DNA of 63,976 nt, counting the filler, from Chrysochromulina tobinii (lineage: Eukaryota): the NCBI GenBank assembly GCA_001275005.1. It is 9 parts of 9 records of this genome, joined end to end, with 100 filler letters (N's around TTAATTAATTAA, not from the genome) between each part and the next. Parts side by side here need not be neighbours in the genome. Positions count along the whole stretch, not along the records: positions 1 to 8,476 come from JWZX01000141.1; 8 more parts are not named here. One strand, written 5' to 3'. Made by a program: the position numbers and the translations under genes. Shown here one piece after another: positions 1 to 61,100 of this stretch (its first letter is position 1; each line of letters opens with the position of its first letter). Under the pieces are notes generated by a model, which saw only the letters and a program-made list of their open reading frames with translations, was not told the origin of the DNA and did no database searches.

Positions 1-310
1 CTCTCGCGCCGCCGCCTCCCGCGCCGCCGCCTCCCGCGCCGCCGCCTCTCGCGCCGCCGCCTCCCGCGATGTCGCCGCCGCCTCCCGCGCCGCCACCTCT
101 CGCGCCGCCGCCTCCTTCGCCGCCGCCTCCCTGACTGCCGCCTCTCTATCCAAGAGCTCTCTTTCGCTCGCCTTCCTCAGAACCGCCTCCCTCGCCGCTG
201 CTTCGGCCGCCACCGCCTCCCGCGCCGCCGCCTCCCGTGCCGCCGCCTCCCACGCCGCCGCCTCTCGCGCCGCCGCCTCCTTCGCCGCCGCCTCCCTCGC
301 CGCCGCCTCG
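1..310 (-). repeat. 15-nt coding tandem repeat encoding (EAAAR/K)n
   Basis: Degenerate units of ctcccgcgccgccgc on +, reading GAG GCG GCG GCG CGG on -. Confidence 0.9.
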
Positions 311-1121
311 GCTGCTGCCTGTCGCGCGGCCTCTTCGGCGCGCTGTTGCGCCGCACGTGCCTGCTGCTCCGCCCTTTCTCGGGTCCGCCGCTCCGCCTGT
401 GCCTGCTGCTCCGCCCTCTCTCGGGTCCGCCGCTCCGCCTGTGCCTGCTGCTCCGCCCTCTCTCGGGTCCGCCGCTCTGCCTCAAGCTGCGCCTTGTGCT
501 CCGCGCTCTGTCGCGCGTGCTCCTGGGCGGATCGGCCCGCCTGCTCGGCAGCCAGTCTGCGCAGCTGCTCGACCTCGCTCATGGCCGCCTCGCGCCGTGC
601 CGCCTCGGCACGTCGGAGTGCCTCGAGCTCCGCCGCCAAGGTCGCCCGCGCCGCCTCCGCGGCAGCTTGCTCGGCGAGCGCTGCCGCGGCGCGCACCTGA
701 TACGCTTCCACCTCCTTCGCCATCTGCGCCTTCGAGCTCGAGTGCTGTGCCGCGGCGACCGCCGAGGTCTCGGCCATCGCCTTCGCCTCCGCTCGAGCAG
801 CCAAGGCAGCTTGCTCGGCGGCCACTGCCTTGGCTGCCGCCGCCTCGGCTATGGCCTTCTCCTTGGCGAGTGCACGCTCGAAAGCAGCGGCCGCCTCTGC
901 ACGTACTAGCTCCGCTGTCGTGGCGGACTGACGCCGCACATCCTCGATCGCCGCGGAGGTCGTCCGCTGCGCCTCCGCTTGCACCTCCAAAACAGCGCGC
1001 TGAGCCGCCTCGAGCGCCGTACCGAGCGCCGCCTGCGACTGCGCCTCCGCCGTGCGCATCGCCGCCTCCGCCACCGCCGCGCGCTCCGAAGCCGCCGCCG
1101 CCGCCGCCTCAGCTGCTGCCA

Positions 1122-1166
<45 letters not shown>

Positions 1167-4100: not shown

Positions 4101-7100
4101 GCGAGCTGGTGCAGCTGGCACTGAGGAGGCTCGGCAAGCTTGAAGTGAGGCTTGTGCTACTCGAAGTGAGGCTCGGCAAGCTGGACACGACGCTGCTCCG
4201 GCCGCTGCCGCGGCTGCTGCGCTGCTGCGCGTGCGCATGGGTCCACCATCGCTGCATCGCCGTATGCAGCGCGACTGCACGGGCAAGTCGCACACTGCCC
4301 TTGACCTCAACGGCCCGAACGCGCTCCCGCCGCCAGCGCGCGAGGGCCGCGAGGCACTGACGGGCGCTGGCCAGCTGAGCCGCAGTGGCCCACATGGAGC
4401 GTGTATGCGCGAGGTCGTGCCAGCGCCCAAGGGCACACGCGCGCGACCAGCCGCGCCGGTGCGCGCTCGCAACGCTGCGCAGGAAGCGCTGCCGACCCAA
4501 CTCGCACGTCAGCCGGCCGAAGGCTGCGGCAAGGATGCGAGCGACGCCAACGGCGCAGCCAGCGTGCATCAGGCCAGCCGCGGCCCGCGCATGGCGCTGG
4601 TGGCTCTCACGCCAGCTGTGAAGGCTCTCACGCCAGCTGTGAAGGGCGGCCTGGAGGTTGAGAGCGATGCCAACGTCGCGGCCGGCAAGCAGCAGACCCG
4701 CCGCCGCCGCCTCGCGTATACGCGCCTCGCTCCAGCGCGCCCACGTCGCACCGAGCGCCATGGCCTCTGCGAGTAGCACGGCAGCGATCCAACGGCGGCT
4801 CGGCCAGCGGCGCCAGGCGCGCCGGTAGTCAACGAGCCTCTGCTGCTCGAGAAAGGCAGCTGCCGCGCGGAGCAGTGCTCTCGACGAGCTGTTCAGCAGC
4901 GTCCAGCTGACCCACAATCGCAGGGCGAGCTCCGATAGGGCCCGCACTGCGAGCCCAGACAGCTGGCGCTGCGCCAGGGCGAGCATGGCCACGGACGCGA
5001 GGCCGCGCAGCCAACGCTGCCAGCCGTGCTGCACGCACACGCCCAGTGCCAGCTGGTGCAGCGAAACGCTCAGCACTTGCGCTGCCGCCGCCGCAATTAG
5101 AGCGGTCAACCCGCGGGCGGTGCGATGATGTGCCGCGCACTCGTCGGCGCGGGCGCGCGCGGCGTGCGCGAGCCAGCGCTGCAGCCGCCGTTCGCCGACC
5201 GCCGCGGACCATCGACGAAGCGCGCTGATGAGGGTCGCGTGAGGCCAGTGCACGGTGGCTGCTCGCAGGACGCGCTGGCGCAAGAGCCGATTGCGCACAT
5301 GCTGCGCCCACCGGCACAACGCACGCCGCAACACTGTCAGATGAGGCTCGAGCGCCTCTGCCCACTCAATCGGCGACATTAACATCTGCGTCCGCGAAGC
5401 CGCCAACTGAATGAGCTGTTCCCACGACGCCTCGTACGGCGGCGCGTGCGTCGTCGTCGGCGGCAACGGTGCAAGGCTCTGTGACGCGGAGGGTGAGGGC
5501 ACGGGCGTCTGAACCGTCGAGCCGTCGTAATTAGCCGCATCTGAATCGGCATCTGAGCCGGAGACCTCGGACGCGACACGAGAGAAGCCCGCATGCACGA
5601 CGGCGCCAGCCTGGGCGAGCTGCGTCAAAGCTTCCCACTGAGACTGGAAATTGCCATGCATGCCGACGGGCGCGCCAATGGCGGTAGGGCCGAGGGGAGA
5701 CCCCGCGGCTGCCTCTGCTGGCGGTCGCGCAGGCTCGCCTTCGCGAAGCCCATCGGGGCCCATGCCATGGCCATCGGCACTCGGGCCGTTGCCATCGGCC
5801 ACGCTCGCGTTGGCGAAAGGCGCGACGTACATCCACGAAGGCATCGAGCGCTCTTCGTACTCCCAGAGTGAGGAGGAGAGCGCGGCGGAGAGGGAGGGCA
5901 TGCGTGGTGACGTGGCTGGTGACGTGGCTGATAGCGTGGCTGGTGACGTGACTGGCTCGTCGTAGGCTGGCCCTCCGAAGTCCAGAGCGCCAATTTCATC
6001 TGTTTCGGCTGGCCCTCCGAAGTCCAGAGCGCCAATTTCATCTGTTTCGGCTGGCCCTCCGAAGTCCAGCGGCCAGATGGCCCTCCGAAGACGTGCAGGT
6101 TGGCCTAATATGGAAGGACGAGCAGGGTTGCCTCCCTGAGCCAACGCTGGCTCGGACGCTACCGCCTCTCTCACTGGCGGAGCGTCCGCTGCCCTTGGTG
6201 CCAGCTCCGATGCTGCCTCCGATGCTGCCTCCGATGCTGCCTCCGATGCTGCCTCCGATGCCGCCACCGCCGCCCTGTCCTCGCCCTCGTCCACTGACTT
6301 CGTGCCAAAATCGAGGGTGATGAGGCACTCCAGCGAGTGCCCCGAGGTGGGTGTCGCCGCGAGCCTCACGCTCGGCAAGTAGCTGCTCGGCGTGGTCGCG
6401 AGCGCTCCTACGGTGGACGCGGAGCGTACAGCGGCCGACGGCGTCGCATCTGGCGCTGGCGACGGCGTCGAGGGCGGCGACGAGGGCAGCTGCCGCAGGA
6501 GCGCCTCATCTGAGAAACCTGGCAAGCTTGGCGCCTCGTCAGGTAAGCTCGATAAGCTCGGCACGCTGGATAAGCTGGCGGCAGATGCAGGGCGAAGGAT
6601 CCGAGCTGCAGGCGGCGGCGTCGGCGCATCTGAAGATCTCACGCCGTGCAAAATCTCTGGCGACATCGGCGGTGGTGGCGGCGCAGGTGGCGAGGCGGCC
6701 GCGCTCTCCTGGCAGCCAGAGTACACGCATCGCGAGCGTGCCGCCGGAAGCATCTTCACCGACGAGCGCGAGAGCGGTGACAGCAGCAGCGCCGCCGATG
6801 AGCGCCCTGGCGAGCGCGATGGCGACGCTGGTGGCTCCTCCTCCACTGCGGCTGCAGACGCCGTCTCGGGCTCCTCTTCGGATTCGTCAACCTCCTCCAT
6901 TGCGGCTGCAGACGCCGTCTCGGGCTCCTCTTCGAATTCGTCAACCTCCTCCATTGCCGCGAGGTACGAGGAGCGCTTCGTGCCCGGCGCGAGCACCACC
7001 GAGGTATCGAGCTGATCTCCCGCATCGAGCTCCATCTCGAGGGCCTTCGCCTTCTTTCGCGCCGCACGCTCACGTTGCTCCGCTTCGAACTCGCTGATGC

Positions 7101-8476
7101 GCTGTGAGAAGGGGGTGGTCGGAGGCACTCAGAGGCACTCAGAGGCACTCAGAGGCACTCAGAGGCACTCAGAGGCACTCAGAGGCACTCAGAGGCACTC
7201 AAAGGCACTCAGAGGCACTCAGAGGCACTCAGAGGCACTCAGAGGCACTCGGACCTGTAGGAATCGTCCCTCGCGCATTTGACCTCTGAGCTGATGATAC
7301 TGGTCGCGCACCTCGCGCAGCTCGCGCATCATCGGAGGTGTGCACCCCTGGGCGGCGGGATCAAGCGCGTTGTCTCGCTGGAGCGCCACGGCCGCGGAGA
7401 GTTTGGGCGGCAGTAGCGGCGTGGTCAGCAGCACGGCGCGCAGAAGGCGCTCGGCGGACGGGATGCCCCGACCGTCAGCGTCAATGAGGGAGGCTTGCAC
7501 GAGTGCCCGCTCACCTGAGGACAGAGCCACTCAAAGGAATTCAGCGGCGCTCAGACGCCATCAGGCGCCATCAGGTGCCATCAGGTGCCATCAGGTGCCA
7601 TCAGGTGCCATCAGGTGTCATCAGGTGTCATCAGGTGTCATCAGGTGTCATCGCTCACCTTCCCGCAAGACTACCGGGTGTCTCACGCGCAGCGCACGGA
7701 TGGCCCACGGCTGATCGCCGCGCAAATGGACTCCCCACAGCGGCAATTCCACAGCGAGCCCGGCGGCACACCTGCCATGAGACGCCATCGAACGCAATCA
7801 GAGGCCATCAGTCGCCATCAGTCGCCATCAGACGCCATCACACGCCATGAGACGCCATCGAACGCAATCAGAGGCCATCAGAGCGTTCCACAGCGAGGCA
7901 CGCCCTCAAACTCAAACCCCATCAAACCCCCTCAAAGGCCATCACACGCCATCACACGCCATCACACGCCATCACACGCCATTAGACGCCATCAGACGCC
8001 ATCAGACGCCATCAAACCCCCTCAAAGGCCATCACATGCCATCACACGCCATCAGACGCCATCAGACGCCATCAGATGCCATCAAACCCCCTCAAAGGAC
8101 ATCACACGCCGTCAAACGCTATCAGAGGCACACCCGACGATCGCGCGTACAGAATTGCCACTCGCCGCCACCACCGAGCCAAACGGGATGAACGACGAGC
8201 CCTCGCCGAATGCAGCCTCCGCGTCGTCCTGGGCGTCCTCATCGACCTCCGCATAGCTCGCCGCTGCGCCGCGCGCGCGCCGGGCCATCCCACCGGCCGC
8301 CCCGCCCGCCGCGCTGCCGCCGCACCCGGCCGCCGGTGCACTCGTCGCTTCCCATCGCCGAGGCCACAACGGTCTGGCCGAGAGCGCATGCGGTAGGCAC
8401 ATGGCCATTCGGAAGCCATTGGTGGGCTCGACGATCATGTTACGGTCCGCGAGCAGAAGCAGCACAAGCTCCTTGA
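1..8476 (-). CDS. Giant Sfi1-like (Trp-repeat, putative centrin-binding) and coiled-coil protein; partial at both ends
   Basis: Exons (minus) 8476-8134, 7771-7659, 7514-7255, 7101-1 join in frame through GT-AG introns. The last exon has no stop in the frame of codons 3k+1..3k+3 (about 2367 aa) and runs off the window. It carries many L/A-x-x-W-R motifs (LRRCLVRWRW, LTTALSTWRH, RQGWRAWRAR, ALRHWRR), then Ala/Glu coiled coil, poly-Q and (EAAAR)n. The Sfi1 assignment rests on motif resemblance only. Confidence 0.75.
7102..7254 (-). repeat. Intron filled with (GAGTGCCTCT)n, about 13 copies
   Basis: CAG|GTCCGAGTG donor and CTCACAG acceptor; removal restores the frame (FLQ|RISEFE). Confidence 0.85.
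7515..7658 (-). repeat. Intron filled with 10-mer (TGGCACCTGA/TGACACCTGA)n; AG|GTGAGCG at both junctions
   Basis: GGAAG|GTGAGCGatg ... ctcAG|GTGAGCGggc; phase-1 join. Confidence 0.8.
7772..8133 (-). repeat. Intron filled with (CGTCTGATGG/CGTGTGATGG)n; GTGTGCC at both junctions
   Basis: GTCGG|GTGTGCCtct ... ggcAG|GTGTGCCgcc; phase-2 join. Confidence 0.75.
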
Positions 8477-16706: not shown

Positions 16707-16953
16707 NNNNNNNNNNNNNNNNNNNNNNNNNNNNNNNNNNNNNNNNNNNNTTAATTAATTAANNNNNNNNNNNNNNNNNNNNNNNNNNNNNNNNNNNNNN
16801 NNNNNNGATCGATCCGATCGAGGACGAGGCGGGAACATAAAAAGTTTGTTTGGAAGGCAAGTCAAGTCAAGTCAAGTCATGCCTGCGTCTGTCGGTCAGG
16901 CGTCTGTCGCTCAACTTGACTTGTCTTGTCTTCGACTGGGAATATCTCTGGCC

Positions 16954-18957: not shown

Positions 18958-19563
18958 TTAGTTTGCTACCCCTTTCGCCTTTGGCAAGCTTCGCTTACGA
19001 GCACTCACTAGAACAACCTCGAAGAGTCGGTGTCGCGCGACGATGCCAAAGAGTGTGCTGATGATCGTGAGGAAGAGCCACGCGCCGCGACCGATGGCGC
19101 CACTCGCGTGCAGCTCGTCACGCTGACGCCTTGCGTGATCGGCAAACGGGCGCAGCACGCGCGGGCCGATGGGCTCGATCGCGAGCGTCTCGAGACCAGC
19201 AGCCTCAAGGGCTGCGGCGTACCTGATGAGGGATGCCATCAGAGGTCATCAGGGTCATTCAGAGGCAATCAAGCCATCTCAAGGACTGCTGCGTACTCCT
19301 TGGCGCCATGGAGATTGGACGCAATCAGACGCAATCAGACGCAATCAGACGTAATCAGATGCAATCGAACGCAATCAGACGTACTCCTTGGCGCCATGGA
19401 GATTGGACCACGGGATGTCGCAGAGCCGCGCGATCAGCCGGCGCAAGACCGCGCGCCATAAGCGGCGCCAGCCCCGCCGGTAGCGGCCGAGGCGGCCACG
19501 GCGGCCCGTGTGCTCCCCGCGCCGCCACCACCACTGCAGCAGCTGCTGCTGCTGCTGCTGCTT

Positions 19564-20448: not shown

Positions 20449-23400
20449 ATGGGCTGCGCTAGCTCGAGCCCAGGCAAGGCCGCTCGGCTGCCGCCGCCTG
20501 GCGGTGGCGGCGGCGGCAGCACGCAGCAGACGGATGAGGATGGCTACAACCCGCTGACGCAGGAGGAGATCCATTCACGCATCCAGTGCAGCGAGAGGGC
20601 GCTCCTGTTCCCGCTCGGGAAGACGGGTGTGACATTGCGCTATGCGTACCTCTCGCAGCGCGGCTACTATCCCGATGACCTTTACAAGGCCAACCAGGAC
20701 GCGTTCAAGATCGTCGAGAGGTTCAATGGCCGGGACGACCAGATCTTTCTGGGCGTGTTTGACGGCCACGGCTCGGACGGTCACTCGTGCTCGTATTTTG
20801 TGCGCGACTCGATCGAGGCCGAGCTCAAGCGCCAGATGGCCAAGTACCCGAACGACTTCGAGAGGGCGTACCGGCTCGCGTTCGAGACCGTCAACCTGCG
20901 CATGCACGACCAGTACTTTGACGACTCAATGAGCGGGACGACGGCGATCACTGCGTTCTTCACAGGCACGACGTTCACAGTGGCGAACATTGGCGACTCA
21001 CGCGCGATGGTGGGCGAGAAGAAGGGCAAGCGAGTCATTGCCTACTCGCTCTCCATTGACCAGACGCCCTACCGTGCGGACGAGCGGGAGCGCGTCAAGG
21101 CGGCAGGTGCGGTGGTCATGTCGTGTGATCAGCTCGAAGGAGTAGTACCGTACCATGAGAATTGGGGCGTGAGTCTGGGCGAGGAGCTCGATAACGGCGG
21201 CGACCCGCCGCGCGTGTGGGCGCCCGGGAAGAGCTTCCCAGGCTGCGCGTTTACGCGCTCGATTGGCGATTCGGTCGCGGAGAGCATTGGAGTGTACTCC
21301 GAGCCCGAGTTGCTGCGCAAGGAGCTCGCTGACGGGGACCAGTTCCTTGTGCTCGCATCGGATGGCGTGTGGGAGTTTCTGACGAACCAGTCGGTCGCGG
21401 ACATCATCACGAAGTTCGACGACCCGCTCGACGGTTGCCGCGCCGTCGTGGCTGAGTCGTACCGGTTGTGGTTACAGTACGAGGTGCGGACGGACGACAT
21501 CACGATGATCCTCGCTTTCGTCGACCGTGCCAACGGCCAGAGCGGCAGAGAGCAGCCTAGGTCGGGCTCCCTCTCCACGTTGCGCCACGGCTCCCCCGAC
21601 CAAATGTCGGCCGGGCTGGGCGTCGTCGGGCGCGCTGGCGGCGAGAATCGCCCAGTACGGCGCGCGCTCTCGAAGGAGAAGAAGTCGCAGATGTCGATCT
21701 CGTCGACGTCGGCGGAGGCGGAGGACTTATCTGATTGGGTGATGGAGACGATCCCAAAGACCCGAGCGGAGCTCGCGCGCATCAAAGGCGCCGTCAAGAC
21801 CAATTTCCTCTTCCAGCACCTGAACGAGGCTCAGCAGCAGCTCGTGTTTGACGTGATGAAGCGGGTGGAAGTTAGCCGAGGCGACGTAGTCATTCGGCAG
21901 GGCGACCCGGGGGACTGGTTCTACGTCGTCGACTCGGGCGAGTTCTCAGTCTGGATGAGCCAGAATGGCAAAGAGCATCAGATCCTCAGGTACGCTTGAT
22001 GGCTGATCTCGACTGATCTCGGCTCACTGCAGATTGCCTCTTGAGTGCCTTTGAGTCCCTCTGGATTGCCTCTTTGATCAGGTACACGACCGGCGGCGGC
22101 ATCAACCCTTGCTTTGGCGAACTGGCCCTCATGTACGGCAAGCCGCGCGCGGCCACAGTGCGCGCGGACACGGTCGGCGCACTTTGGGCAATGGACCGCA
22201 AGTCGTTCCGCTCGATCTTGATGAAGTCGTCCTCGCTCACGCTCACGCGCACGCTACGCGCCGTGGCGGTCCTCAAGAGTCTCTCCGTCGGTCAGCTGCA
22301 GCGCCTGCAGGACCTGCTGACGGAGGTGACTTTCAGCCCTAATCAGAAGATCATCACGCAAGGCGAGGCGAGTGACAACCTGTACATCATCGCAGAGGGG
22401 CGCGTGCGCATCACGAAACACGAGAATGGGGGGGAGAAGCACGTCATGGACCTCGGGCAGGGAGCCTACTTTGGCGAGCGTGCCCTACTTTACTCGGAGC
22501 CACGCGCAGCTTCGGTGCATGCCGCTGAGTGCCCCCGAGTGCCTCTGACCGCCTCTGCTCGCCCCCGATCGCTTCTGGCCGCCTCTGACTGCCTCCGTCA
22601 TCAGGTGAGTGCCTCGACTGCATGCAAGCTGCTCTACATCTCCAAAGGCGCATTCGAAGAGGTCCTGGGCTCGCTGCAGGGGATCATCGACGTTGACCGG
22701 CAGACGCGCGAGGGGATCGCCCATCAGAAGGCCCTCGTCCTTGAGCAAGAGGGCCTAGCACACGTGCAGGTGCCGCACGTGTGGGAGGGCATCGAAGGCG
22801 TCGCGTGCGCGTCCGAACCCTTCCAGTACACTTTAGCGAAGCTCAAAGGGCGCGAGTACACTGTCCGGGTCGCGTCTAAGGATAAGATCGTCCAGTCTGG
22901 ATTGCATGCGCGGGTGATGGCGGAGAAGGAGCTCGTCTCGACCCTCGTACAGGAGCATCGGATGGTGCCACTTGCTCTCATGACGCTCCAGGACGAGAGC
23001 ACGCTCTTCACTGTGTACAAGCCCCGCGTCGCCATCGACCTCGCCAGCTTGATGGGGGAGAGCGGCTTCGACGAGGCGACTGCGCGATTCTACACGGCTG
23101 GGGTGCGCTGCTTTTCAGTGCCTTATCAACGGCCTCTTGATTGCCTCTGGATTGACTCTACATGGATCCTTGTTTGACTCTTGATTGCGTATCTCATCAG
23201 GTGTGCCTCGGGCTCGAGCACTTACGCGCCGAGCACAGCCGCATCATCTACCGCAACTTGACGCCCGATGCGATCATAGTCGATGCCTTGGGCTATCCGC
23301 AGCTGATGGACATGCGCTACGCCGTCAAGGTGGATTCCGCGCCCACGGACTTTTGCGGCTATGCGCATTACCTCTCGCCCGAGCAGGTGCTGGGGCAGGG

Positions 23401-32780: not shown

Positions 32781-35700
32781 GTGGCGACGGTGGCGACGAC
32801 GGCGAGGATGAGGCGTGGTTGCTGCCGCGGGCACCATCATACGAGGCGCATGCAGACGGCGGCGAGGGCCTCGGGCTGCATGCAGGCGCTTCGGCGCTCG
32901 TGGTGAGCTCAAACTTCCTCTCGGGCTTCAATGGCATGCAGCAGCGGGCAGCACAGTTGAGCGCTGCACTGGGCAAGCTGGGCTATGCCATCCACTACGT
33001 GGCCGCCGGTCCGCTCAACTCGACGGCGGCGTGCGCGAGCGCGACGCCCGCCGTTATCTGCCACGGCGAGGGCGACACGGACGCCCAGTACGGCGCGTAC
33101 GCGGCCTGGGCCAAGGCGACACGTGCGACGCCTACGCTGGCAGCGGTCGCGTTCACCTCTCTCACCCTCGAGGTGTCGCGCGCGCTGCTGCGGCTGCCGC
33201 GCGCCGCCTTTGGTAAGTCGACTGCATGCCCAACTGATTGCATGCCCAACTGATTGCATGCGCGCCGCCTTTGATAAGTCGACTGCATGCCCAACTGATT
33301 GCATGCCCAACTGATTGCATGCCCAACTGATTGCATGCCCAACTGATTGCATGCCCAACTGATTGCATGCCCAACTGATTGCATGCCCAACTGATTGCAT
33401 GCCCAACTGATTGCATGCGCGCCGCCTTTGGTAAGTCGACTGCCTAACGTGGGGTGCGACCCGCTGGATTGCATGCTGATAACCTCTGATGGCGCCCCTC
33501 ATCAGGTAAGTGGACGGTCCAGGGAGGGTACGACCCTTCCCACCTGCCCAAGGCACATCGATGCCTCCGACTGCTCGGCACGATCGCGGCAGATTTCCCC
33601 ACAGCGCACCTCGTCCTCTTCACCGACGACATCCACTTTGAGCGCACGCGGTACATCCTGCGCCTCGCGGGCAAGGAGGCGCTGTTGCGGGCGCCCGATA
33701 CGACGCGCGTCCTCGCGGGCGCCAAGCGCCTCGAGCTCGCGACGTACGCACGCGCTCGACTCGTTCTCCTCATCTCGGAGCAGGTGGGATTGCCGCTGAT
33801 GGCGTCTCGGATGGCCGTGTGAGCACCGCTGATGGCGTCTCGGATGGCGTCTCGGATGGCCTTTCTGAGTGCGTCTCCTTCTCCTCTCGGCACAGGATGC
33901 GAGCACGCTGCGCCAGGCGATGGGCGCCCGATACGGCGCTCCGGACGCGCCGACGGACGACGCGCCGGCCGACGCAGAGGCGGCAGATGCGCCGCCGGTC
34001 GCGAGCACGACAGAGGCGGCGAGGTCGACGGCGGCGGCTGAAGCGACGCCGCACCTTGGTCTGATGCCCTTCGGCGCCTCGCCACTCCCGCCTTCGGAGG
34101 TGGCGGCCCTCAGTGCGCGCGTGGCCGGCACGATGCTGTACGTGGGCACGTGCCACCCGGTGGCCAAGGCGAGTGTGACGTGGCTGGTGCGGGAGGTGCT
34201 GCCGCGGCTCGAGCGCCGCCTGAAGCGCGCGTCGGCGCTCAGGACGACGCCGCAGCTGCGCCTCGCGGGCACTGGCTGGCTGTCCCTCGCGTCGGAGGCA
34301 CCCTTTGCGCAGTTGGTCGAGTCCGGCACGCTGGTGGTGCTCGGCAAGCTCTCTGTGGCGGCGCTGGCGCAAGAGTATCAGCGCGCCACGCTCTTCATCT
34401 CGCCCCTCCTCAACGCCACCGGGATTGCGACCAAGAACTTTCATGCGATGGCGGCTGGACTGCCGGTGCTCACCACGCCGATGGGAACGGCGGGGCTGCT
34501 GCTGCCGGCCGCGCCGCTCATTGCCTGTTGCACGGGCGAGGACGGCGAGGACGGCGAGGATGGAGAGGATGGCGAGGACGGCGAGGATGAAGAGGATGAC
34601 CATGACGGCGAGGACGGCGAGGACGGCGGGGACGGCGAGGAGGATGTCGCGGTGACGGCGGCGAAGGCGCACGAGCACGGTGAGGCGGAGGAGATCGGTG
34701 GTCGAGCCTCAGCTGCTGCGGCAGGGCCGGCTGCTGCCCCCCTTCAGTGCACGGGCGGCACTTCCATCTTTGGGCCACCTGCCGAGCCGTTTGCGCCCCC
34801 GCCGTCGCTTGCAGAGAGCTGCGCGCTGCAGCCGATGAGGATGGAATGTGCCGCGTGGGAGGCTGCCAAGGCGGCCAGCGGCCTGCCGACGCGCCTGGCC
34901 GGAAGCGCGGTCGAGGCCATGGGAGACGCCAGAGGAGGCGGCGGTGGCGGCATTGTTGGCGGTGGCGGCAGGAGAGGCGGCGGCAGGGGCGGCGGCAGGG
35001 ACGGCAAGCGCGGCGGCAAAAGCCAAGGCGGCGGCGGCGGCAGCGGCGGGAACAAGAGCGCGAAGCCTTCCAAAAGAGGCAACCGCGGCGGCGGGTCAAA
35101 GCACGGCGGTGGTTCGTCAGGTTCGTCAGGTTCGTCAAAGCACGGCGGCGGCAGCGCCACGAGGCAGTTGCTCTTCTCCGTGTCGCGGAGAGGTACGGTG
35201 CCTTCGCCCCACCACCCGTCGTCCCTCCACCCGTCGCTGCATTCGTCGGGGGTGCTGTGGGTGGCCGAGGGCCCCGATGCCTTTGCCGACGCTGCGATCG
35301 ACGCACTGAGCAGCCCCGCCCTCTGGCAGCGCGTCTCGCGCCGCGCGCTGCGCCATCAGCGTATGCTGAGCGCGAGTCGCCAGAGTGCGGCGTTTGGAAG
35401 GCTTCTCGCGTCCGGTGCAGTCGGCGCGAGGCTACCGGCCGAGCGTGCGTGCGTGCTCGTCTGCGACTCGTGCGAAGGCGGCCGCCGCCGGCGGCGGCTG
35501 CGCGCCGTCTTGGGCGCGCTGCTGCGGCTGCGGATCGCGGTGCATATGATCGTGCTTCCCCGCGGCTCGGTGCCACACTCCGAAGCTCGTATGATCGGAT
35601 GGCTGCAGGCTCAAGGGGTCTTCTTCTACGATGGCTCTCCCCAGGATCAGGTGAGCCTCGTTAATGGCCTCTTGATGGCCTTGGTTGCGTCCTGAGTGCA

Positions 35701-36733
35701 TCCTGATTGCATCGTCACTCACTTATAGGGCCCTCCCCGTGAGCAGTGGAGCGCGCTGATCGCCGCGCAGCCGTACCCGCAGCCCTCTTTCGCCTTGGCG
35801 ATGCCGCACTCGCTGCGCGACGTCGTGCGCCAGCTTGGTGCACCCTCGTGCGCTCCAGCGCGCGCCACGACAGCGCGCTGCTTTTGGATCGGCGGAGCCG
35901 GCGCCGGCGAGCGCGAGCGCGAGGCGGGGCGGCGCTCGGGGCGGCATCCGGGGCGGCGCTCACTCGCTGTTGAGGATGCAGACGTGGCGGCGGCGAGGCG
36001 CTTGGTTCCCTCTTTGCTCCGCAATCAAGGCAATCAACGCGATCAAGGCGATCAACGCGATCAAGGCAATCAAGGCAATCAACGCGATCAAGGCGATCAA
36101 GGCGATCAACGCAATCAACGCAATCAAGGCGATCAAGGCGATCAAGGCGATCAAGGCGTGGATCCCTCTCTGCTCCGCACCGGTGACGGCGGTGGTGTTA
36201 GAATGGAGCCCCATGCCACCGACGCACCCGCCAGTGCTGTGCTCGGATCACCGCCCGCGAGTGGCGTGCACCTTCTGCAGCTGCTCAGATGCATGCGCTA
36301 CGACGCGTCGCTCCCCCTCGCCCTCGTGCCCGAGCCACTGCACGCCCAATACGGCGCGCTCGACGCCGGCGGTTCCACAGGAGGCGAGCCCGGGCCAGCG
36401 GCGCGCGACGCGCTGCGTCGGCTGGTGGCGCGATACGAAGGGCAGATACTCGCGCTCGCGACGGCGCTCCTGGTTAGCGGCGGGAAGGCGCATGCGGCGG
36501 CGCTGCGCGAGGCGCCCGTGACGGGGCCGGACGGAGAAGGGCGCGCAAGGGCGCCGCCGCGCGCAGAGCCGCCGCTGGTGCTCGAGCTGCCATTAACGAA
36601 ACTGCCAGCCACGAAACGGCCATTAACGCCGCTGGTGCTCGAGCTGCCTTCGGAGCGCCTTAGCCCGCGCGCCACGGACGCGGCGTGGACGGCGGTGCTC
36701 GTGGAGGTCCTCGGGCTGCACGACACGACGTGA
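31094..36733 (+). CDS. Type II membrane protein: sulfotransferase domain fused to GT4-like glycosyltransferase
   Basis: Exons 31094-33212, 33506-33783, 33896-35650, 35729(or 35747)-36733 join in frame. TM helix LLLLMLLLLALAAIIGL; 5'PSB FVGGLQRSGTSTL, DKSPEN, 3'PB FVMRHP; GT: GMQQRA..L..LGY, FTDDIHFER, ELATY..LISEQD, SPLLNATGIATKNFHAMAAGLPVLTT. Confidence 0.8.
33213..33505 (+). repeat. Intron with 16-mer (GATTGCATGCCCAACT)n and two internal copies of its own donor junction
   Basis: gcgcgccgcctttg(g/a)taagtcgactgc occurs three times; ends in cassette B (cccctcatcag). Confidence 0.85.
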
Positions 36734-45000: not shown

Positions 45001-48000
45001 TGCCATCGCGGCGGCAAAGGCGCTGTTGGCGGCGGCGAAGGCGGTGGCGCCCCCGGGCTGAGCGCCGTACTGAGCGCTCACGGCACTCGCGCTCGAGAGC
45101 GTCGTGCTGAGCGCTTGGCGTTCGGGCACCGGCTGCAGCGCGAGCGCCGTGCCGAGCGCGTGGTTCGGCGGCGGCGGCAGCGACGCGCGCGTCGACGGCG
45201 GCGCACGCGGCGGCGGCGAGAGCGAGGGCGAGGTGACGGGCGGCTTGTCGCGCTCGTCGCGGCGCTCCTGTGCCGTGTGGAGGGTGTGGAGGGTGTGGAG
45301 GGTCCGTCGGAAGGGGCAATTGGGCTCCGGCGCTGTGGTGAGCACTCGCATGCAAGGGAAGGTCATCAGTGGCAATCAACGTACCTGGAGGGTGCGTCGG
45401 AAAGGGAAGTTGGGCTCGGGCCCACTCGAGGCGTAATAGACCCATCGACGGAGCGCCTCCCCCGCCACACAGAGCCAGGAGGCGGTGAGGCACGCGTCCA
45501 ACCGGCGCGCCGCCGCGAGCAGCTCCGACTTGCTCAGTTGCTCCTCTAGAGAGGGTACCTCGGCAAGCACCTGATGACGAGGGAGGCCATCGAGGGTGTG
45601 AATTGAGGCCATCATCAGAGGCCATCATCAGAGGCCGATTCAGATACCATCTCCCGAGAGCGCATCTCCCGAGATCGCACTTCCCTGGCCCTCAGCTTAA
45701 GGGAGATCGAGGGCACTCAAGGGAGATCGAAGGAGATCGAAGGAGATAGAGGGAGATCATGGGAGATCAGGGGAGATCGCACCTCCTTGGCATCCCTCAG
45801 CTCGCGCCGTGCCGCGAGCGCCTCCGCCGCCTTGGCCTTCGCGTCCTCCCGAGCGCCCTCCGCCTCCCGCGCCGCCCCCTCGAGCTGCTCGCGGAGTGCG
45901 GCTTCGCGTGCTGCCGCGGCCGCGCGCGTCGCTTCGTGTGCACGATCTCGCTCGAGCTCCTGCGCGGCGCTCGCGGCCTGAGGGCGCTGTGGTGAGCACT
46001 CGCATGCAAGGGCAGGTCATCAGTGGCCATCAACGTACCTGGAGGGTGCGCAGTCGCTCGTGCTCCGCCGCCGCCGCCTCCTCGAGCTCCGCCCGCAAAG
46101 CCGCACGCGCCTCCGCCGCCGTTGCCGCCTCCGCCGCCGCCGCGGACCAACGGTCGCGCATCTCGTCCACCTCGCGCTCGACCGCGCTCAACTCGGCGCT
46201 CAGCGCCGCGCGGACGGCGTCGGCGTCGGCGAGCGCCGAGTTGAGCGCGAGGTTGCCGAGATGGCGCTGCTCGTCGCGCTGGCGGAGCGCCGTACCGAGC
46301 GCCGACTGGAGCCGCTGCGCCTCCATTTGCGTGGCGCCGAGCTGTCGCTGCACCTCCCTCTGCATCGCCTGCAGCGCCGCGTGCTGCTCGAGCTGCTTCT
46401 GAGAGCCCTCCACGAGCGTCATCGAATCGAGCAGCTGGGCTCGCAGCTCCACCTGCAGCCCATCTGCGTGGATCCGAGCCTGCGCCACCTCCACCTCCAC
46501 CTCGCCGAGCGCCGTGCTGAGCACGCGCTGCGACGCCTCGAACGCGCGCACGTGCGCGCTCATCTCGGCGACCAGCTGGGCGCGCGCCGTCTCGGTGCGC
46601 TCCCGTTGGGCGCGCGCCTCGAAGGTGAGCGCCTCCATCGCCTCGTCCGCCGCCGCGCGCGCCGCCTGCGCCGTCTCGAGTGCGCGCGCGCCCGCCTGGA
46701 GTTGATGGCGGAGGTGGCCGAGCTCACCACGGCGCGGCAGCTCGGGGTGATTCTCGAGCCGCTCGAGCGACCTGTGGGGAGGTGAGGGCGCCGTGGTGAG
46801 CACTTGCATGCAGGTAGCTCGGGATGATTCTCGAGCCGCTCGAGCGACCTCCACGCGCGCTTTGCCGTTACGAGCCATCCCTGGCTCGTCATTTGGGTCG
46901 TCGTTTGGTCATGGCCGATTGGTGTGGCCTTGGGCCGCGGCCGATCAGCCGCCGCCGCTGCGCCCGCCGCAGCGCCGAAGCCACCTATCTTTGCGGCGGC
47001 GGGCGGGGCGGCGGGCGGGGCGGCGGGCGGGGCGGGGCCGTCTGCGCTGCTTCTCGCGCTTGCCGCGGGGGTGGGCGTCGTCTTGGGCACCAGGCGTTCC
47101 TCGAGGGCCGCGAGGCCCTCCGCGAGGTCGTCGAGCGCCGAGGCGGCCGCGTACCTAATGAGGAAGGCAATCATCCTAATGAGGGAGGCAATCATGATAA
47201 TGAGGGGGGCCATCGTCCTAATGAGGGGGGCATCCATCCTAATGAGGGAGGCACTCCTCCTAATGAATGCCTCACTCCTCCTAATGAATGCCTCACTCAT
47301 CCTAATGAGTGCGCCACTCAATCCTCCGCGAGGTCATCGAGCGCCGAGCCGGGCGCGTACCCGTCTTCGAGGCGCAGCGCCGCCGCGAGCTCGAGAGCAG
47401 CCGCATGTCGACGCACCTGTGGGGAGGCGATGGCGCCGTAGTGAGCACATGCGTGCTTGGAGAGGGCAGCCGCATGTCGACGCACCGCATGCCCCTGCTC
47501 GGCCGCCGCCTCCTTGGCCACCGCCAGATCGCCCTCGAGCTGCGATCTCGCGGTCTCGAGCTGCGATCTCGAGGCCGCCAGATCGCCCTCGAGCTGCGCC
47601 GCGCGCGCGCGTGCCTCTTCGACCTCGGCGGAGAGCGTGTCGATCGTCTGGTCCGCCACCAACAACGACTCCGCCACCTGATGAGGAAGGCAATCAGAGG
47701 TCATCAGAGAGGTCATCAGAGGTCATCAGAGGTCATCAACAACGACTCCGCCACCTCGGCCGCATCAGTCTCGGTCTTGAGACGCAGCTGCTCTTCGGCC
47801 GCACAGGCGGCCGCCTTGGCCGCCGCGACCTCCTTGGCAACACGCAGCCGCTCACGTAGCGCCGCCCCTTGCGTCTCCTCGGCCCCGATGGCAATCTGCA
47901 CCGGCGCGCGAGAGGGGAGGTGAGCAGCAGTCCAGATCACTCAGCGGTCACTCCGAGGTCACTCCGAGGTCACTCCGAGGTCACTCCGAGGTCACTCCCA

Positions 48001-51000
48001 GGTCACTCCGAGGTCACTCCGAGGTCACTCCGAGGTCACTCCCAGGTCACTCCGAGGTCACTCCGAGGGCACTCCGAGGTCACTCCCAGGTCACTCCGAG
48101 GTCACTCCGAGGGCACTCCGAGGTCACTCCCAGGTCACTCCGAGGTCACTCCGAGGTCACTCCGAGGTCACTCCGAGGTCACTCCGAGGTCACTCCGAGG
48201 TCACTCCGAGGTCACCCCGAGGTCATCAGAGGTCGCGAGCACACCTGCACCGCCGCGAGTGATGTGAGCAGTTGGTCGAGCGAGGGAGGGAGCGCCTCGT
48301 GCAGCGGCGGCAGCGGCGAGGTATGCGTGAGCGGCACGAGGCTCGCGTGCACCTGATGAGGGGGGCAATCATGAGTGTCATCAGATGCGGGAGGCTGACG
48401 AGGGAGGCTGATGAGGGAGGCAATCAGGCACGAGGCTCGCGTGCACCGTCCCAAGCAGCTCGCCGATCTCGAATAATTGGACTAATTGGGTCTCCTGCTC
48501 GAGCTCGAGCAGAGATTGCTGGAAGTGCCACTCGGACTCGGCCGCGCGCGCGAGCTCCATCTGCGCCTGCGCCTGCGCCTGCGCCAGCTGCGCCTCCGCC
48601 TGCGCCCTCGACAGCACCTCCGCCGCCGTCTCATACGAGAGGGGTTCTCCCCCGTGCATGGGAGCGTCATAGAGCGTCTCGTCGAGCAAGTGGAGCCCCT
48701 CCTCCCCCGCCTCGGCATGGGGCGACGCATGCAAGTGCCCACCACGGCGCGCGCGAGAGGGGAGCCCCTCCTCCCCCGCCTCGGCATGGGGCGACAGCGG
48801 CGGCTCGCGGTGCTCGCGACGGCGCGAGGCCAATGGGGGGGGGCGCCGTACCGGGCGCGTGCTGCGGCGACGGCGCGGGCGGCGGATGCGAAGGCAGCAG
48901 CTGCGGCAGCGGCGAGGGACCGTGCGTCGGGAGCTGTGCGGGTGCCCAGGACGGCGCCACGTGCGAGTCGCGCCGCAGCTGCGTGGCGCCCAGTACGGCG
49001 CCCTCGAGGCGCCTCTGCCGTTCGCGCTCCTCCATTTGAGTCGCCCTCGCCATGCGCGCCTCCGCCTTCGCGCGCTGCTCGGCCAACGCCTGGAGCTGCC
49101 CTTGGACGCTCGTGTGGAGCTGCCCTTGGACGCTCGTGTGGAACTGCCCTTGGACGGAGCGAGAGTGCACCTGGCCGGCGCGAGATTGCATCTGGCGCTC
49201 GTCCGCTGAGCGAGATTGCATCTGGCGCTCGTCCGCTGAGGCATCGGCGCGTGCGCCCATCAGCTGCGCCTGCGCACATTCAGCGTCCCGGCGGGCCGCC
49301 ACCGCCGAGTCCGACGCCGACGCTCGGAAGTCTCTCGGAAGTCTCTCGGAAGTCTCTCGGAAGTCTCTCGGAAGTCTCTCGGAAGTCTCTCGGAAGTCCG
49401 ACGCCGACGCCGAGAGAGTCTGAAGTCGCTCGGAAGTCTCTCGGAAGCGGGCCAGCGCCGCCTCCGTCTCCGGCGCACCCGCCGATGCGAAGTACGGGGG
49501 GGCGGAGGCGTGCGGCAGCGTCGAGTTGGGCGGAGGCGCGACCACCGAGAACTGTGCCGAAAGCGAGCACGCGGCACGGGGGGCGCCCGCCACGACGCCC
49601 GGCGCACCGCCCGCCACGACGCCCGGCGCGACGCCCTGTGAACGGTCCGTTGGCGAGGCCAGGTGTGAACGGCCCCCTGGCGAGGGCCGGTGTGAACGTG
49701 TGCCCGAGCTGCGAGGCGGCGACATGAACTCGTCGGTGGGCGTCGTGGTGGGCGCGGCGCTGCCTGCTGGCGGTTCCGGGGGTGAGGTGTTCGGGGGGGA
49801 GGTGTTCGGGTAGGTGGGTTGGCGTGGCTCATAGCACTGAGGCGCGGGCTGTGGCGAAGGGGGGAGCGCATCGACTTCATGCGGGACGCCGAGCCGCGCC
49901 TCTCTCCCCCTCATCGGCCCGCCGCCTCCTCCCACCCCAACGGCAGCCGCGCTACCCGCCAGCACGGCGCCAGCGGAGCCGCCCGCCACGATGCCCGCGC
50001 CCGAGGCCGCCAAGTTGCGCTCGACACAGCGCTCGGGCCCGCGCGCTGGCGACGAGGAGTTGACGAACCCCCGTTCGGGGTGGCAGGCAGGGACAATGCG
50101 AGCGCCCGCCGTGCTGCGCGTGGCCGACGGCGCCGTGCCGGGCGCGGTGCGCGCCGTGCCGGGCGCGGCGGCGCCCGCCTCCGCGCCAGTCGCGCGCATG
50201 GGGCGGCTCGGCTTCGGTTGTCGCGCCGCCGCCGGGTCGACGCACTGCGGGCGCTCCCAGTGGACCTCGGCCGCGTACCCGCCGCTCGTGCCGCAGCCGC
50301 CGCCCACTCCGATGACGGAGGGGGGCGCCCAGTTGGGCGCCCACGACGGCGCGGGCGCCAGGGCCGCTCCGCGCGCCAACGGCAGCCCATTCACAGGCTG
50401 ATTCACAGGCTGGTTCACCATATGGGCCGGCGCCGAGTTGAGCGCCGGCGCGAGTGAATGGAGAGTGGGCGGCTGGGCGAACCGGGGCGCCGAGTTGAGC
50501 GCCATCGAGCGTGCCGCGCTGGGCGCCGTCGTGGGCGCATCCTCCGGCGGCGAAGGCGGCGGCGACATGGGATTCGAACCGCACGGCTCGAACGGCGCTA
50601 CTTCCATGCCGTGCAGTAGTTCGGGCTTCCGATCGGGCGCTGTCGTGGGCTTCCGATCGGGCGCTGTCGTGGGCTTCCGATCGGGCGCTGTCGTGGGCTT
50701 CCGATCGAGCCACGCCTCCGACCAGCGTTCCACAGCTTGGCCCAGCAGAGCCTCGCGACGCTCCTCCGCGCGCTCCGCGAGGCGCCCACGACAGCGCTCC
50801 GCGTGCTCGGCGAGTCGGCGCTTCTCGGCCTGCCGCGCACCTGTGGGGAGAGGGGCGTGGTCGCGCCGTGGTGAGCACTTGCATGCGGCGCGCGGCGTAC
50901 GCGTGCTCGGCCGACCGCGCCGTCGTGGGCGACGCACCGTGCTTGAGACGTTCCGCCTCCGCCGCGGATGTCTGCGTGTCGTAAAGTTGGGGCGGCGGCG

Positions 51001-51765: not shown

Positions 51766-51800
<35 letters not shown>

Positions 51801-52481: not shown

Positions 52482-52737
52482 TGCTGCCGTTGATGGCGCT
52501 CCTCGTCCTGCGCCTGAAGCCAGCGCTGCTGCTGCTCGAGCTGCTGAAGCTGCTGCTGCTGTTGTAGCTGCTGCTGAAGCTGCTGCTGCTCGTACGCGTG
52601 CTCGTCCTCCTCCTCACCCTTGAAGAGATTCGATCTCATCGGCTGAGATGCGATCTCCTCCTCACCCTCGGGGAGCCGATGGCGGCGCCGTGAGCTCAGG
52701 CTGGGAGGTGGCGGAGGCGGCAGGTGCGGCGGTAGGT

Positions 52738-58172: not shown

Positions 58173-61100
58173 ATGATTCGGCCAGTCAACTCGCCGCTGG
58201 CCTTCCTGCGGGACGCGCTCCAAACGGTTGCGCTGCAGGGTCGCCAAGGCGTCCGCGTCGACGCGCTTTGGCCGTTGCTGCCGAGCGTTGGTGACGTGCG
58301 TCCTGCAGGCGACCAGCACGTGCGCCGATGGCTGTGGACGCAGCTCAAGGCCCATGAAGAGATGAGTGTCAGCCTCGCAGGGCACACGGTAGAGCAGATC
58401 AGGGCGTTCACGCTCGAAGAGGCTGGTGGAGTGCTCATCACTGCGAGCGAGAGGGCGCGCATGTGGATGTATGGGGTGCGAGACGGCTCCGATGAGAGCC
58501 TGAATCCATCCGAGGACATGATGAAGGTGATCGAGGAGCTCGCGCGGGCGGGGCCCCGCGGCATGCTACAAAACCAGCTAACAAAGGCGGTGAAGATCCC
58601 GGCGAACAAGCTCGCGTACACGCTCAGCGTGCTCGAGATGGACCACGTCATCGAGCGCGAGGCCGTGTGGATCAGCACGGCGAGCCTGCGCGCCGACCCC
58701 GCCGCCGCCACCATCCCCCCGCCGCCGCCAAGCTTCAACAAGTACGTCAACCCGATCCTGAAGACCAACTTGGTCACGTTGCTTGCGCTGCGCCCGGATA
58801 TCCCGATGGCGCCGCTCACTGCGTACAAGGGTCACTCGCATGGAGATGGGGGCTTGCTCGAGCGCATGGTGCAGCTGCTGGCTGCCTCGCCTCATGGACT
58901 GCTCCCGTTCTTCAAGCTGCGCATCGACCTGGGCATCGCGACGCGCGAGGACAAGGGGGTATGGAACCGGCTCAAGGAGCGCGCCCTTCAAGACGGACTC
59001 ATCGAAGAGGTCAGCTTCACAGTCGGAGGGGCCAGCTTCACAGTCGGAGGCGCAGCCGCTGGCGCAGCAGCTGGCGCGCTCGGTGGTGCGGCTGGGGCAG
59101 TTCCCGATGCGAGTGGTTACCGGCCACGCGCAGTGCGCCGTGGCATCCGGCTGGTGCGCCGCACGCGGCCCGACAGTGTCGACGGCAGCGGCGAGGCCAG
59201 CAGTAGCAGCAGCGCGCCACCGGCGCTGCTCGACCACGCCCCGTTGCTTCAGATGCAGAGCCACCTCGAGCTCGCCCGATCTGCCGGGATGCTCGGCGTG
59301 AGCTTTAAAGAGAAGCTGCTGCTCCACCCGAAGCACGTGACGAAGCGCATCGTCGACCTCGTCGATGCCCACGGCGTCTTACGCCGTTCAGAGCAGCTCG
59401 GACGTACCAAGGCCTTCCGCCTCTTTGCGCTTGGGACCGCGCCTGCTGGCGGTGCAGCCGGCGCGGTGGGCGGTGGCAAGCGCTCCGGCATGACGAGGCT
59501 CGTGAGCGACCAAGGGCGCACGCTGCAGCAGCAGCAGCGGCGCCAGTGGCTGCTCGACCTGGTGACTGCCGAGGGCGTCGTCGCCACGGAGACTCTCCGA
59601 TCCTTTCTGCAGCACAAGCAGAACGCCGCGGCAGCGGCAGCCGAGGCGGCCGCGGCGGCCGAGGCGGTCGAGGCGGTCGAGGCGGCCGAGACGGCCGAGG
59701 CGGGTGCGGGCAGCAGCAGCAGCGTTGGCATGCTCGGGCCGCTCGGAGGGCCACTCTTAGGGCCGCTCGCAGGGCCGATCGCGCCGCTCACGCCTCACCC
59801 ACCGCCGCCTCGGCCGCCGCCGCCTCGGCCGCCGCCGCCTCGGCCGCCGGCGAGTATCATCGACCGAAAGACAGTGCTGCGCATGACGGATGAGATGCTC
59901 TCAGAGGGCCTTCTGACCACACTCATCGTCGACAACCCTCTCGCACAGGGGCAGGCTGCCTCGGGAGCGGCGCCCTCTGCCAAGCCCACTATGGTGGGCG
60001 ATCGATCGAAGCTCGTACTGCTTGCGATGCCGGGCGTCACAACCGATGGGCCAGAGGTCGCCCGGCTACTCCAAGCGATCAGTGCCGCGGGCAGCTGGAA
60101 GGTCTTCACGACGCGCTCCATTGCGGCTCGTGTGCCCGAGAGCCAAGCCATCCGTCACAAGGCACGGCCGCTCCAGATCGCCGGACAGCTCGAGCGGAGC
60201 TCGGAGCAGCAAGGGCGCTTCCAGGGGGGGCATGCCCTCGCCCTTGCGCACGTCGGAGGCGGCGACGGCGGCGGCGCGGCGGGCATTGGTGAGACAGCGG
60301 AGCGCGGTCGCGGTTCTGGGCGCGGGCGCGGGCGCGGCCTCCAAGTCTCAGCAGAGGGTCGCCTGATTGGTAGCTTGGGCCGCGGCAAGGGCATCAAGCG
60401 CGAGCGGGACCCACGTACCGACTCGGCCGTTACAGACTCGGCCGTTGCCTCTGCGGGGGCGATGCACGAATTGGCAGGTGGCGGTGGCAGCGTCACCGGC
60501 CCTGGCGCTCACAACAGCGCTGGCGTAGCGACGGGTGCCGGCGGCTCACTGTTCGACGGGAGCGCTGTTGTGAGCGCCCAATCAGCATGCAATCAGAGAC
60601 AATCAGGCGGCTCACAACTGTTCGACGGGAGCGGCACCGTTCTGCCTGCGACCTTTGACTTCCCGTCTGATGGGCACGATCTCGACGGCATCGGCCAGCT
60701 GCAGCTTCGGTTTGGGTACGTGTGATTGCATCGGATGGCGTCTGATTGCGCCCCTCATCAGCTTCGGTTTGGGTACGTGCCCGGGCGCGCGTGGCGAGTG
60801 TCTCTGATTGCATGCTAATTGCCCCCCTCATCAGGTACGTGCCAGGGCGCGCGTGGCGTGCGGAGCGCCTGCATGGCATCGTGCTCGACATGGCGCGCGC
60901 CTCTCTTGCCGATCGGGCGGGGGATGCCGAGGCGGCGACGGCGGTGGCCTGTTCCAAGCTGCCTGGTGGCGCTGTTGGGCTGTGGGGAGAGCACGAGAGG
61001 CCTGTCCCCAGCGCTGGTGCGCCGACTGCCGGCGACGTGATGGCAACGTCGGCGGAGATGGCGACCTACGCCGCGCCGCCGCCGCCAAGGGTAACGACGG

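What the first reader, a model, noticed from the sequence alone, without database searches (positions are those of the whole stretch)
7102..8133. Intron fillers are a strand-biased family of 9-16-mers carrying branch-point-like CTRAY motifs
On the sense strand, fillers across the window read GAGTGCCTCT, TGGCACCTGA, CGTCTGATGG, GTCTGATTGC, CTAATTGCCT, TGATGATGGCCTC, AGTGACCTCGG and CTGATTGCATGCCCAA. Most are variants of CTGATTGCCT, the 5' half of cassette B. Related but locus-specific units, in the same orientation in genes on both strands, suggest a common short template plus local expansion (a telomerase-like or repair-polymerase process; speculative).
Basis: partly seen in the sequence, partly recalled or inferred. 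Interest (0 to 1): 0.7.

Follow-up and report, generated by a model that had tools for sequence, protein, structure and literature searches.

The report
Algal introns copied from other introns
In a haptophyte alga, many introns are stuffed with one family of ten-letter repeats that almost always run in the gene's direction, and new introns likely arise when DNA repair copies a piece of an existing intron into a new spot, which would be a way to multiply introns without a conventional transposon.

Summary
Mostly confirmed. The three arrays at 7102-8133 lie in introns that RNA contigs splice, in a Prymnesiales-like haptophyte. Fillers form one family, CTGAT(T/G)(G/A)C(C/A)T: 19 of 20 window arrays run sense, on both strands; in 132 related loci the acceptor cassette's strand carries Pfam genes 17:1. 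CTRAY is common, not universal (6 of 8 units; none in 7102-7254). A single telomerase-like template is unlikely: introns start with a 10-43-nt copy of the next exon (69 of 127 against 0.2%), and three carry pieces of another intron, joined by 10-15-nt homology. Arrays then gain or lose units between strains. Sense units hold stops in all frames; rare antisense inserts survive in-frame, so the bias is likely selection. Best model: homology-guided repair copying from existing introns (0.45); RNA-templated insertion is the main rival. The scan noted the duplication footprint before on other DNA of this genome; introners are known in haptophytes, and directional 10-11-nt intron repeats are recalled from Emiliania. 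New variant of a known kind.

The parts
7102..7254 (-). Intron, 153 nt, filler (GAGTGCCTCT)x12.9 at 7122-7250; no CTRAY
   Evidence: RNA joints in X13, X14
7515..7658 (-). Intron, 144 nt, filler CTGATG(A/G)CAC; begins GTGAGCG like the next exon (9 letters fit both sides of the joint)
   Evidence: RNA joint in X14
7772..8133 (-). Intron, 362 nt, mosaic filler CTGATGGCGT and variants; begins GTGTGCC like the next exon (8 letters fit both sides)
   Evidence: RNA joint in X15
19223..19384 (-). Predicted compound intron in a methyltransferase gene: filler GTCTGATTGC between 29-nt direct repeats, then exon-start copy, filler, cassette B
   Evidence: not tested with RNA
21990..22081 (+). Intron 1 of PP2C-cNMP-kinase gene, decayed filler and B-like end
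   Evidence: best splice model against homolog P0121; no gaps at junction
22515..22604 (+). Intron 2 of the same gene, decayed filler and B-like end
23103..23200 (+). Intron 3 of the same gene, decayed filler and B-like end
33213..33505 (+). Predicted intron with the 16-mer CTGATTGCATGCCCAA x12 and cassette B
36005..36160 (-). Antisense 9-mer filler (TTGATCGCC/TTGATTGCG) inside a plus-strand ORF, 156 nt (52 codons) between diverged direct repeats, frame open
   Evidence: whether it is spliced was not tested
45268..45384 (-). Predicted recipient intron: copy of the intron at 45978-46038, sharing 12 nt of upstream exon, followed by a diverged 32-nt duplicate of its own upstream exon
45978..46038 (-). 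Predicted donor intron: filler joined to cassette A, no duplication
47678..47754 (-). Type example: 18-nt copy of next exon start + CTGATGACCT filler + cassette B
47937..48234 (-). 11-mer array CTCGGAGTGAC x27, the most derived unit (6 of 10 to consensus)
48408..48426 (-). Exact cassette B core TGATTGCCTCCCTCATCAG, inside predicted intron 48353-48446 with a 20-nt exact exon-start duplicate
48692..48760 (+). Antisense cassette A insert with 35-nt direct repeat, 69 nt, frame open
60548..60616 (-). Antisense filler plus an inverted copy of nearby sequence (60562-60579 mirrors about 60504-60521), 69-nt repeat spacing, frame open
60716..60834 (+). Predicted nested intron of the TFIIIC gene with two B-like ends and exon-start duplicates

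Best explanation
The fillers are the repeat body of a large family of spliceosomal introns that likely spreads when DNA break repair or a replication template switch copies filler plus acceptor cassette from an existing intron into a new site. Step 1 (inferred): a broken 3' end pairs by 1-15 nt of homology with one of the many existing introns, copies through filler and cassette, and rejoins upstream at AG, duplicating 10-43 nt of exon (duplication shown). Step 2 (shown for six introns by RNA or homology): the first copy's GT and the cassette's AG splice the insert out without changing the mRNA. Step 3 (inferred): sense inserts that are not spliced carry stops in all frames and are purged, antisense inserts cannot form introns and persist only as rare in-frame pieces, giving the strand bias. 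Step 4 (copy-number differences shown, slippage inferred): arrays expand and contract locally, fixing private units. The cassette's CTGAT, 20 nt from the end, is the likely branch point; the filler likely serves as spacer and spare branch sites (both untested).
For: Intron start copies the next exon start in 69 of 127 distinct cassette sites against 0.2% of 2521 swapped controls; length 10-43, median 19.5, in 68 of 217 sites, no 3n bias; duplicate begins exactly at the AG in 54 of 66. Donor-recipient pairs: L094 carries 10 non-repeat letters plus filler of L051's intron behind a 14-of-15-nt homology; L114 begins with 17 letters of L046's exon start and shares its rare unit; flanks otherwise unrelated. 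Three non-repeat matches of 17-19 nt among 216 x 145 comparisons, none over 16 nt in 287 control exon windows. Window pair 45268/45978 shares upstream exon letters, so that template was not an excised intron. 5' junction microhomology 0.89 nt against 0.43 in swaps (largest of 2000 swaps 0.93; 27 of 68 sites scorable). Antisense exonic inserts are 69, 69 and 156 nt, all 3n. Unit-number differences in four orthologous pairs. Longer duplicates go with shorter inserts (rho -0.43, p 0.003, n 47; -0.30, p 0.07 in the 38 under 110 nt).
Against: Only two clear inter-locus pairs and one in-window pair; the third match (L063/L013) has another geometry, and detection favours cases with homology. Most junctions show 0-2 nt of homology. 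Inverted local templated inserts, a polymerase-theta mark, are not enriched (4 of 151, all cassette copies, control 2.5); the one at 60562 stands alone. No presence-absence polymorphism or empty site was seen. A fixed 3' end, variable 5' end and variable duplication fit reverse-transcriptase priming equally well. Nested arrays inside introns, where selection should be weak, are also nearly all sense (218 against 6), which may point to a strand-aware mechanism. Short-read assemblies can miscount repeat units.
Confidence: 0.45

Rival explanations
1. Target-primed reverse transcription: a LINE-type enzyme copies intron-containing RNA (excised intron or pre-mRNA) into nicked AG sites, as a tailless retro-copy with 5' truncation and a variable target-site duplication.
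For: Precise 3' joint (54 of 66), variable 5' end and duplication, targets follow AG even where no GT follows (G 12 of 12, A 10 of 12; one locus counted twice), near-absolute sense orientation also for nested arrays. LINEs are present in Phaeocystis genomes (PMC12480563, passage); one Pavlovales introner family is classed non-LTR, co-opting its 5' and carrying its 3' site (PMC12130899 supplement 8).
Against: Homologies of 10-15 nt at the 5' joint imply that the donor was chosen there, by a sense-strand end that needs an antisense template (inference); one copy includes upstream exon; some inserts end inside filler, not at AG; no poly(A) or fixed tail; no RT found or searched genome-wide.
Confidence: 0.25
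2. A non-autonomous DNA element (introner; Replitron- or Helitron-like HUH mobilisation) with cassette B as fixed end and a fuzzy other end taken from the parent's flank.
For: Replitron-1 inserts in one orientation, with variable duplication and parent-derived fuzzy end (PMC10288648, passages); one Replitron protein was recovered from Chrysochromulina tobinii. Cassette B is identical at 132 or more places.
Against: Replitron target is RG-3' on the strand of the fixed end, here it would be AC or CT; no terminal direct or inverted repeats or constant body; two cassette types and inserts lacking either; no transposase seen.
Confidence: 0.15
3. No copying between loci: local tandem duplications of AG|GT segments make introns, and selection for splicing signals drives fillers to converge.
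For: The A of CTGAT deviates in 2 of 292 inner units against 7-33 at other positions, and all 7 changes at position 3 keep CTRAY.
Against: A 22-nt exact cassette at many loci and foreign non-repeat segments cannot converge; position 5 changes break CTRAY 18 times.
Confidence: 0.07
4. One reading: a telomerase-like enzyme adds repeats from one short ncRNA template at breaks.
For: Constant cassette followed by stuttered units on the antisense strand resembles repeat addition; units recur genome-wide (DNA depth 14,000-22,000 on the first array against about 85-100 beside it; summed contigs, not a copy number).
Against: Many unit types of 9-16 nt; foreign exon pieces; haptophyte telomerase makes TTAGGG; no Rfam match in the window.
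Confidence: 0.06
5. Assembly artefact: duplications and fillers are mis-joins of repeats.
For: Short-read contigs break at the arrays.
Against: RNA joints remove exactly these stretches, an independent DNA run spans their borders, orthologous introns recur in other assemblies, duplicates carry substitutions.
Confidence: 0.02

Closest known systems
Introners of haptophytes (Gozashti et al. 2022, PMC9860276; 2025, PMC12130899)
   Same: Families of related short GT-AG introns without TIRs; Chrysochromulina MAG family 5 (618 copies, mean 72 nt) has TSDs; E. huxleyi fam24 co-opts its 5' and carries its 3' site, noted '10bp terminal direct repeats'.
   Different: Reported TSD is 4 nt with the 5' site carried; here 10-43 nt, variable, and the body is a mosaic VNTR. 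C. tobinii is listed with 0 introner families. The cassette motifs were not found in the supplement text searched (one file cut, two not searched), which may not hold sequences.
Introner-like elements of Symbiodinium and Polarella, classes 4/5 and 6/8/10 (bioRxiv 10.1101/2020.10.14.339549)
   Same: Element carries the 3' splice site, the 5' site comes from the TSD, one orientation favoured.
   Different: Fixed 4- or 8-nt TSD and, in Symbiodinium, inverted repeats; none here.
Intron gain by double-strand-break repair (Daphnia) and intron transposition in fungi (reviewed in PMC3488318)
   Same: New introns with short flanking repeats; families of similar introns in unrelated genes (passages).
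   Different: Daphnia introns had no obvious source; here sources are other introns. The passages read mention no long exon duplication for the fungal copies.
Emiliania huxleyi intronic 10-11-bp tandem repeats (Read et al. 2013, Nature; recalled, text not held)
   Same: From memory: repeat-rich introns with 10-11-bp units and a positional and directional bias, in a haptophyte.
   Different: From memory the paper proposed roles in splicing or Z-DNA and no origin by copying; unit sequences could not be compared.
Replitron-1 of Chlamydomonas (PMC10288648)
   Same: Fixed end at target, parent-derived fuzzy end, variable TSD, one orientation.
   Different: Kilobase elements with terminal direct repeats, hairpin and HUH transposase; RG target.

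Membership tests
Spliceosomal (U2-type) introns | Removed from RNA at GT..AG | tested here: met
   Three joints in RNA contigs; three more by homology
Spliceosomal (U2-type) introns | Branch-point A used in a lariat | not testable with these tools
   CTGAT lies 20 nt before the end of cassette B; intron 7102-7254 has no CTRAY
Introner (TE-derived intron family) | Related intron sequence at unrelated genes | tested here: met
   22-nt cassette at 132 or more places, in genes of many Pfam families
Introner (TE-derived intron family) | Insertion footprint supplying a splice site | tested here: met
   69 of 127 against 0.2%
Introner (TE-derived intron family) | End-to-end similar copies with defined termini | tested here: not met
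   Only the 3' cassette is constant; 5' part is local or foreign exon plus variable filler
Introner (TE-derived intron family) | Empty site in an allele or relative | tested here: inconclusive
   No empty site among the overlapping loci inspected; homolog P0125, on record on a 17-kb contig, aligns without gaps at all three PP2C introns, but how it was predicted is unknown
DDE DNA transposon / MITE | Fixed-length TSD | tested here: not met
   10-43 nt, continuous
DDE DNA transposon / MITE | Terminal inverted repeats | tested here: inconclusive
   None visible in the listed inserts; no formal scan
Non-LTR retro-copy (TPRT) | Fixed 3' end, variable 5' end, variable TSD | tested here: met
Non-LTR retro-copy (TPRT) | 3' tail shared with an autonomous LINE | not testable with these tools
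   No genome held; no tail seen
Polymerase-theta end joining scars | Junction microhomology | tested here: met
   0.89 against 0.43 nt, n 27
Polymerase-theta end joining scars | Inserts templated from nearby DNA, inverted | tested here: not met
   4 of 151 against 2.5; one case at 60562
Telomerase-added repeats | One unit matching the telomere template | tested here: not met
   Many units; haptophyte telomere TTAGGG
Replitron | RG-3' target, terminal direct repeats, HUH partner | tested here: not met
   Target is AG on the gene strand ahead of the duplicate; partner not searchable

The most novel reading that the evidence does not exclude
Introns here breed introns with no element-encoded enzyme: host repair finds an existing intron by 10-15 nt of homology to its exon-derived start, copies it, and the duplication it leaves becomes the homology handle for later rounds, a self-feeding intron factory whose donor-recipient chains can be traced across the genome.
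Probability: 0.35. Interest if true: 0.82.

Novelty: new variant of a known kind. Interest (0 to 1): 0.58.

Why it matters
How new introns arise is still open. Most mass gains are laid to transposons with fixed footprints, and repair-born introns have lacked a visible source. Here the source looks traceable: intron to intron, with long variable duplications. Standard introner searches, which need end-to-end similarity, would likely miss this family (C. tobinii is listed with none). A cultured haptophyte with RNA data makes the DNA-versus-RNA template question directly testable. It would also give an origin for the directional decamer repeats recalled from Emiliania introns.

Tried and rejected
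No whole genome is held, so no census, RT, Pol theta or template-RNA search. Laying contigs on 38437-52789 was swamped by repeat-driven joints; none of the 15 joints shown (313 hidden) was a usable splice. Cassette B and a filler 25-mer gave 0 hits in viral contigs. No Rfam match. Local spreading within a gene: unit sharing 8 of 154 against 546 of 14983, no clear excess. Avoidance of intergenic DNA: 0 of 20 arrays, but only 13% of the window is intergenic, so uninformative. The broad foreign-segment search was dominated by poorly masked cassette letters and its control was too lax; only one search is used. The codon model called 181 arrays sense, 24 antisense, 7 conflicting, 94 not at all (of 306); antisense margins were weak (0.10-0.19), so Pfam was used instead. 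Filler depth relative to flanks is lower in RNA than in DNA runs, a weak hint against an abundant template RNA, not used as evidence. The filler matrix was seeded on CTGATTGCCT, so its conservation profile is not independent evidence for a branch point. Species could not be named. No locus overlaps the window, so that the loci come from the same species is likely, not shown. Ten literature searches listed no paper describing this family; most subscription papers are not held.

Full report
Setting. The window is nine eukaryotic contigs joined by N linkers, about 65% G+C. A PP2C-cNMP-kinase gene at 20449-23853 has Haptolina brevifila (72%), Calcidiscus (66%) and Diacronema (54%) as closest named relatives, so the host is a Prymnesiales-like haptophyte; the species was not determined. 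No whole genome is held.

The observation. The finding's stretch holds three arrays. RNA contigs skip 7102-7254, 7515-7658 and 7772-8133 with GT..AG ends on the minus strand, while DNA run X12 shows no such skip; the spliced frame is open. Three plus-strand introns with decayed fillers in the PP2C gene are the best splice models against a homolog and give a 1041-residue protein without gaps at the junctions. All eight quoted units are present, each on its gene's sense strand only; six hold CTRAY, none CTRAC, and the first intron has no CTRAY at all.

Strand bias. A matrix trained on 313 tandem units from these loci, seeded on CTGATTGCCT, finds 20 arrays of three or more units in the window: 19 sense, 1 antisense, none in 30 resamplings; at two or more units 32 sense, 4 antisense, 1 outside a gene. 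In the loci, 300 of 306 distinct arrays run with the nearest cassette, 218 of them not attached to it. For 61 of the 80 long loci (duplicates and short ones left out) the longest ORF on the cassette's strand had a Pfam hit in 17, on the other strand in 1, about 750 nt away. The bias is real on both strands.

Anatomy. Most inserts read exon-AG, copy of next exon start, filler, cassette-AG, exon. The intron start matches the next exon start in 69 of 127 distinct sites against 0.2% of 2521 swapped controls. In 68 clean cases of 217 the duplicate is 10-43 nt (median 19.5; under 10 not scored), the span is a median 79 nt and shows no 3n bias; it begins exactly at the AG in 54 of 66. Targets follow AG even where no GT follows, some being older acceptors. 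A second cassette (A) joins the same fillers and can take its acceptor side from a duplicate of the upstream exon.

Source of the fillers. L094's intron carries ten non-repeat letters and the following filler of L051's intron, behind a 14-of-15-nt match between otherwise unrelated exons; L114's intron starts with 17 letters of L046's exon start and shares its rare unit. A strict test gave three non-repeat matches of 17-19 nt among 216 introns by 145 exon starts, and none over 16 nt in 287 control windows; the third has another geometry and is not counted as a pair. In the window, 45268-45384 repeats the intron at 45978-46038 together with 12 nt of upstream exon, so that template was DNA or unspliced RNA. 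Templates thus appear to be other introns, not one short RNA. Average 5' junction homology is small but above chance. Against a polymerase-theta reading, inverted local inserts are not enriched, and neighbouring introns do not share units more than distant ones.

Local expansion and selection. Four orthologous pairs differ by whole units or blocks, 10 to about 94 nt, with the caveat of short-read assembly. Sense 10- and 11-mers carry stops in all three frames, antisense none; three antisense inserts inside ORFs measure 69, 69 and 156 nt (not checked in RNA). Selection can therefore produce the bias, though nested arrays being almost all sense leaves room for a strand-aware mechanism. The A of CTGAT is the least variable position (2 of 292), and longer duplicates go with shorter inserts, which fits branch-point and spacer roles without showing them.

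Mechanism. Most likely: homology-guided copying from existing introns during DNA repair or template switching, then splicing-based selection, then slippage (0.45). Rivals: target-primed reverse transcription of intron-containing RNA (0.25), a non-autonomous DNA element with Replitron-like footprints (0.15), convergence (0.07), telomerase-like addition (0.06), artefact (0.02). That copying between introns occurs by some route is about 0.85.

Known systems and what was read. PMC9860276: passages, section 7, supplement rows. PMC12130899: passages, supplement rows, two files not searched. bioRxiv 10.1101/2020.10.14.339549: parts 1-2 of 4. PMC10288648, PMC3622300, PMC3488318, PMC7407515, PMC12480563, PMC4580454, PMC8379373: passages. 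Read et al. 2013: nothing seen, recalled; its supplements and the introner sequence files, which I could not see, may already hold these units. The family works like an introner that carries its 3' site and takes its 5' site from the duplication, but fails fixed TSD and end-to-end similarity. The CTRAY branch consensus and the TPRT and template-switch signatures are from my own knowledge.

Verdict. Real feature, first reading partly supported, new variant of a known kind, interest 0.58.

Noticed in passing
window 16854-16879; L002 and L004 near their starts: An AAGTC pentamer repeat outside genes recurs in the window and in unrelated loci, beside indels between strains: a second, non-intronic repeat family.
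   Followed up: no
window 36749-36860: ACAGGCAGTT arrays after the stop of the plus-strand gene, between short direct repeats; the minus strand reads CTAAC-containing units. Relation to the filler family not tested.
   Followed up: no
window 1-8256, minus strand: The finding's gene has a 7.1-kb exon (2367 codons) with no Pfam match and no filler intron, while the gene at 42285-52789 has many; intron density is very uneven.
   Followed up: partly
window 56149-56260 and 57741-57850: The 3' end of the glycosyltransferase-25 gene is repeated at the start of its contig, suggesting a tandem array or an assembly overlap.
   Followed up: no
window 43128-43217, minus strand: Predicted intron with a GC donor and a cassette B acceptor.
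   Followed up: partly
fillers of 47 simple introns in loci and window: CpG is depleted (o/e 0.54 against 1.24 in exons) and TG+CA enriched (1.52), as methylation-driven deamination would give.
   Followed up: partly
L077:1380-1850, L074:1200-1600, L016:1100-1500: Whole cassette B copies in the opposite orientation next to sense introns.
   Followed up: partly
L072 and L123: Two unrelated introns share the non-repeat leader CTGCCACTCCC before the same filler and cassette, a possible common donor.
   Followed up: partly
window 38437-38954: Many letter differences among DNA and RNA contigs and about threefold DNA depth, suggesting a multi-copy gene.
   Followed up: no
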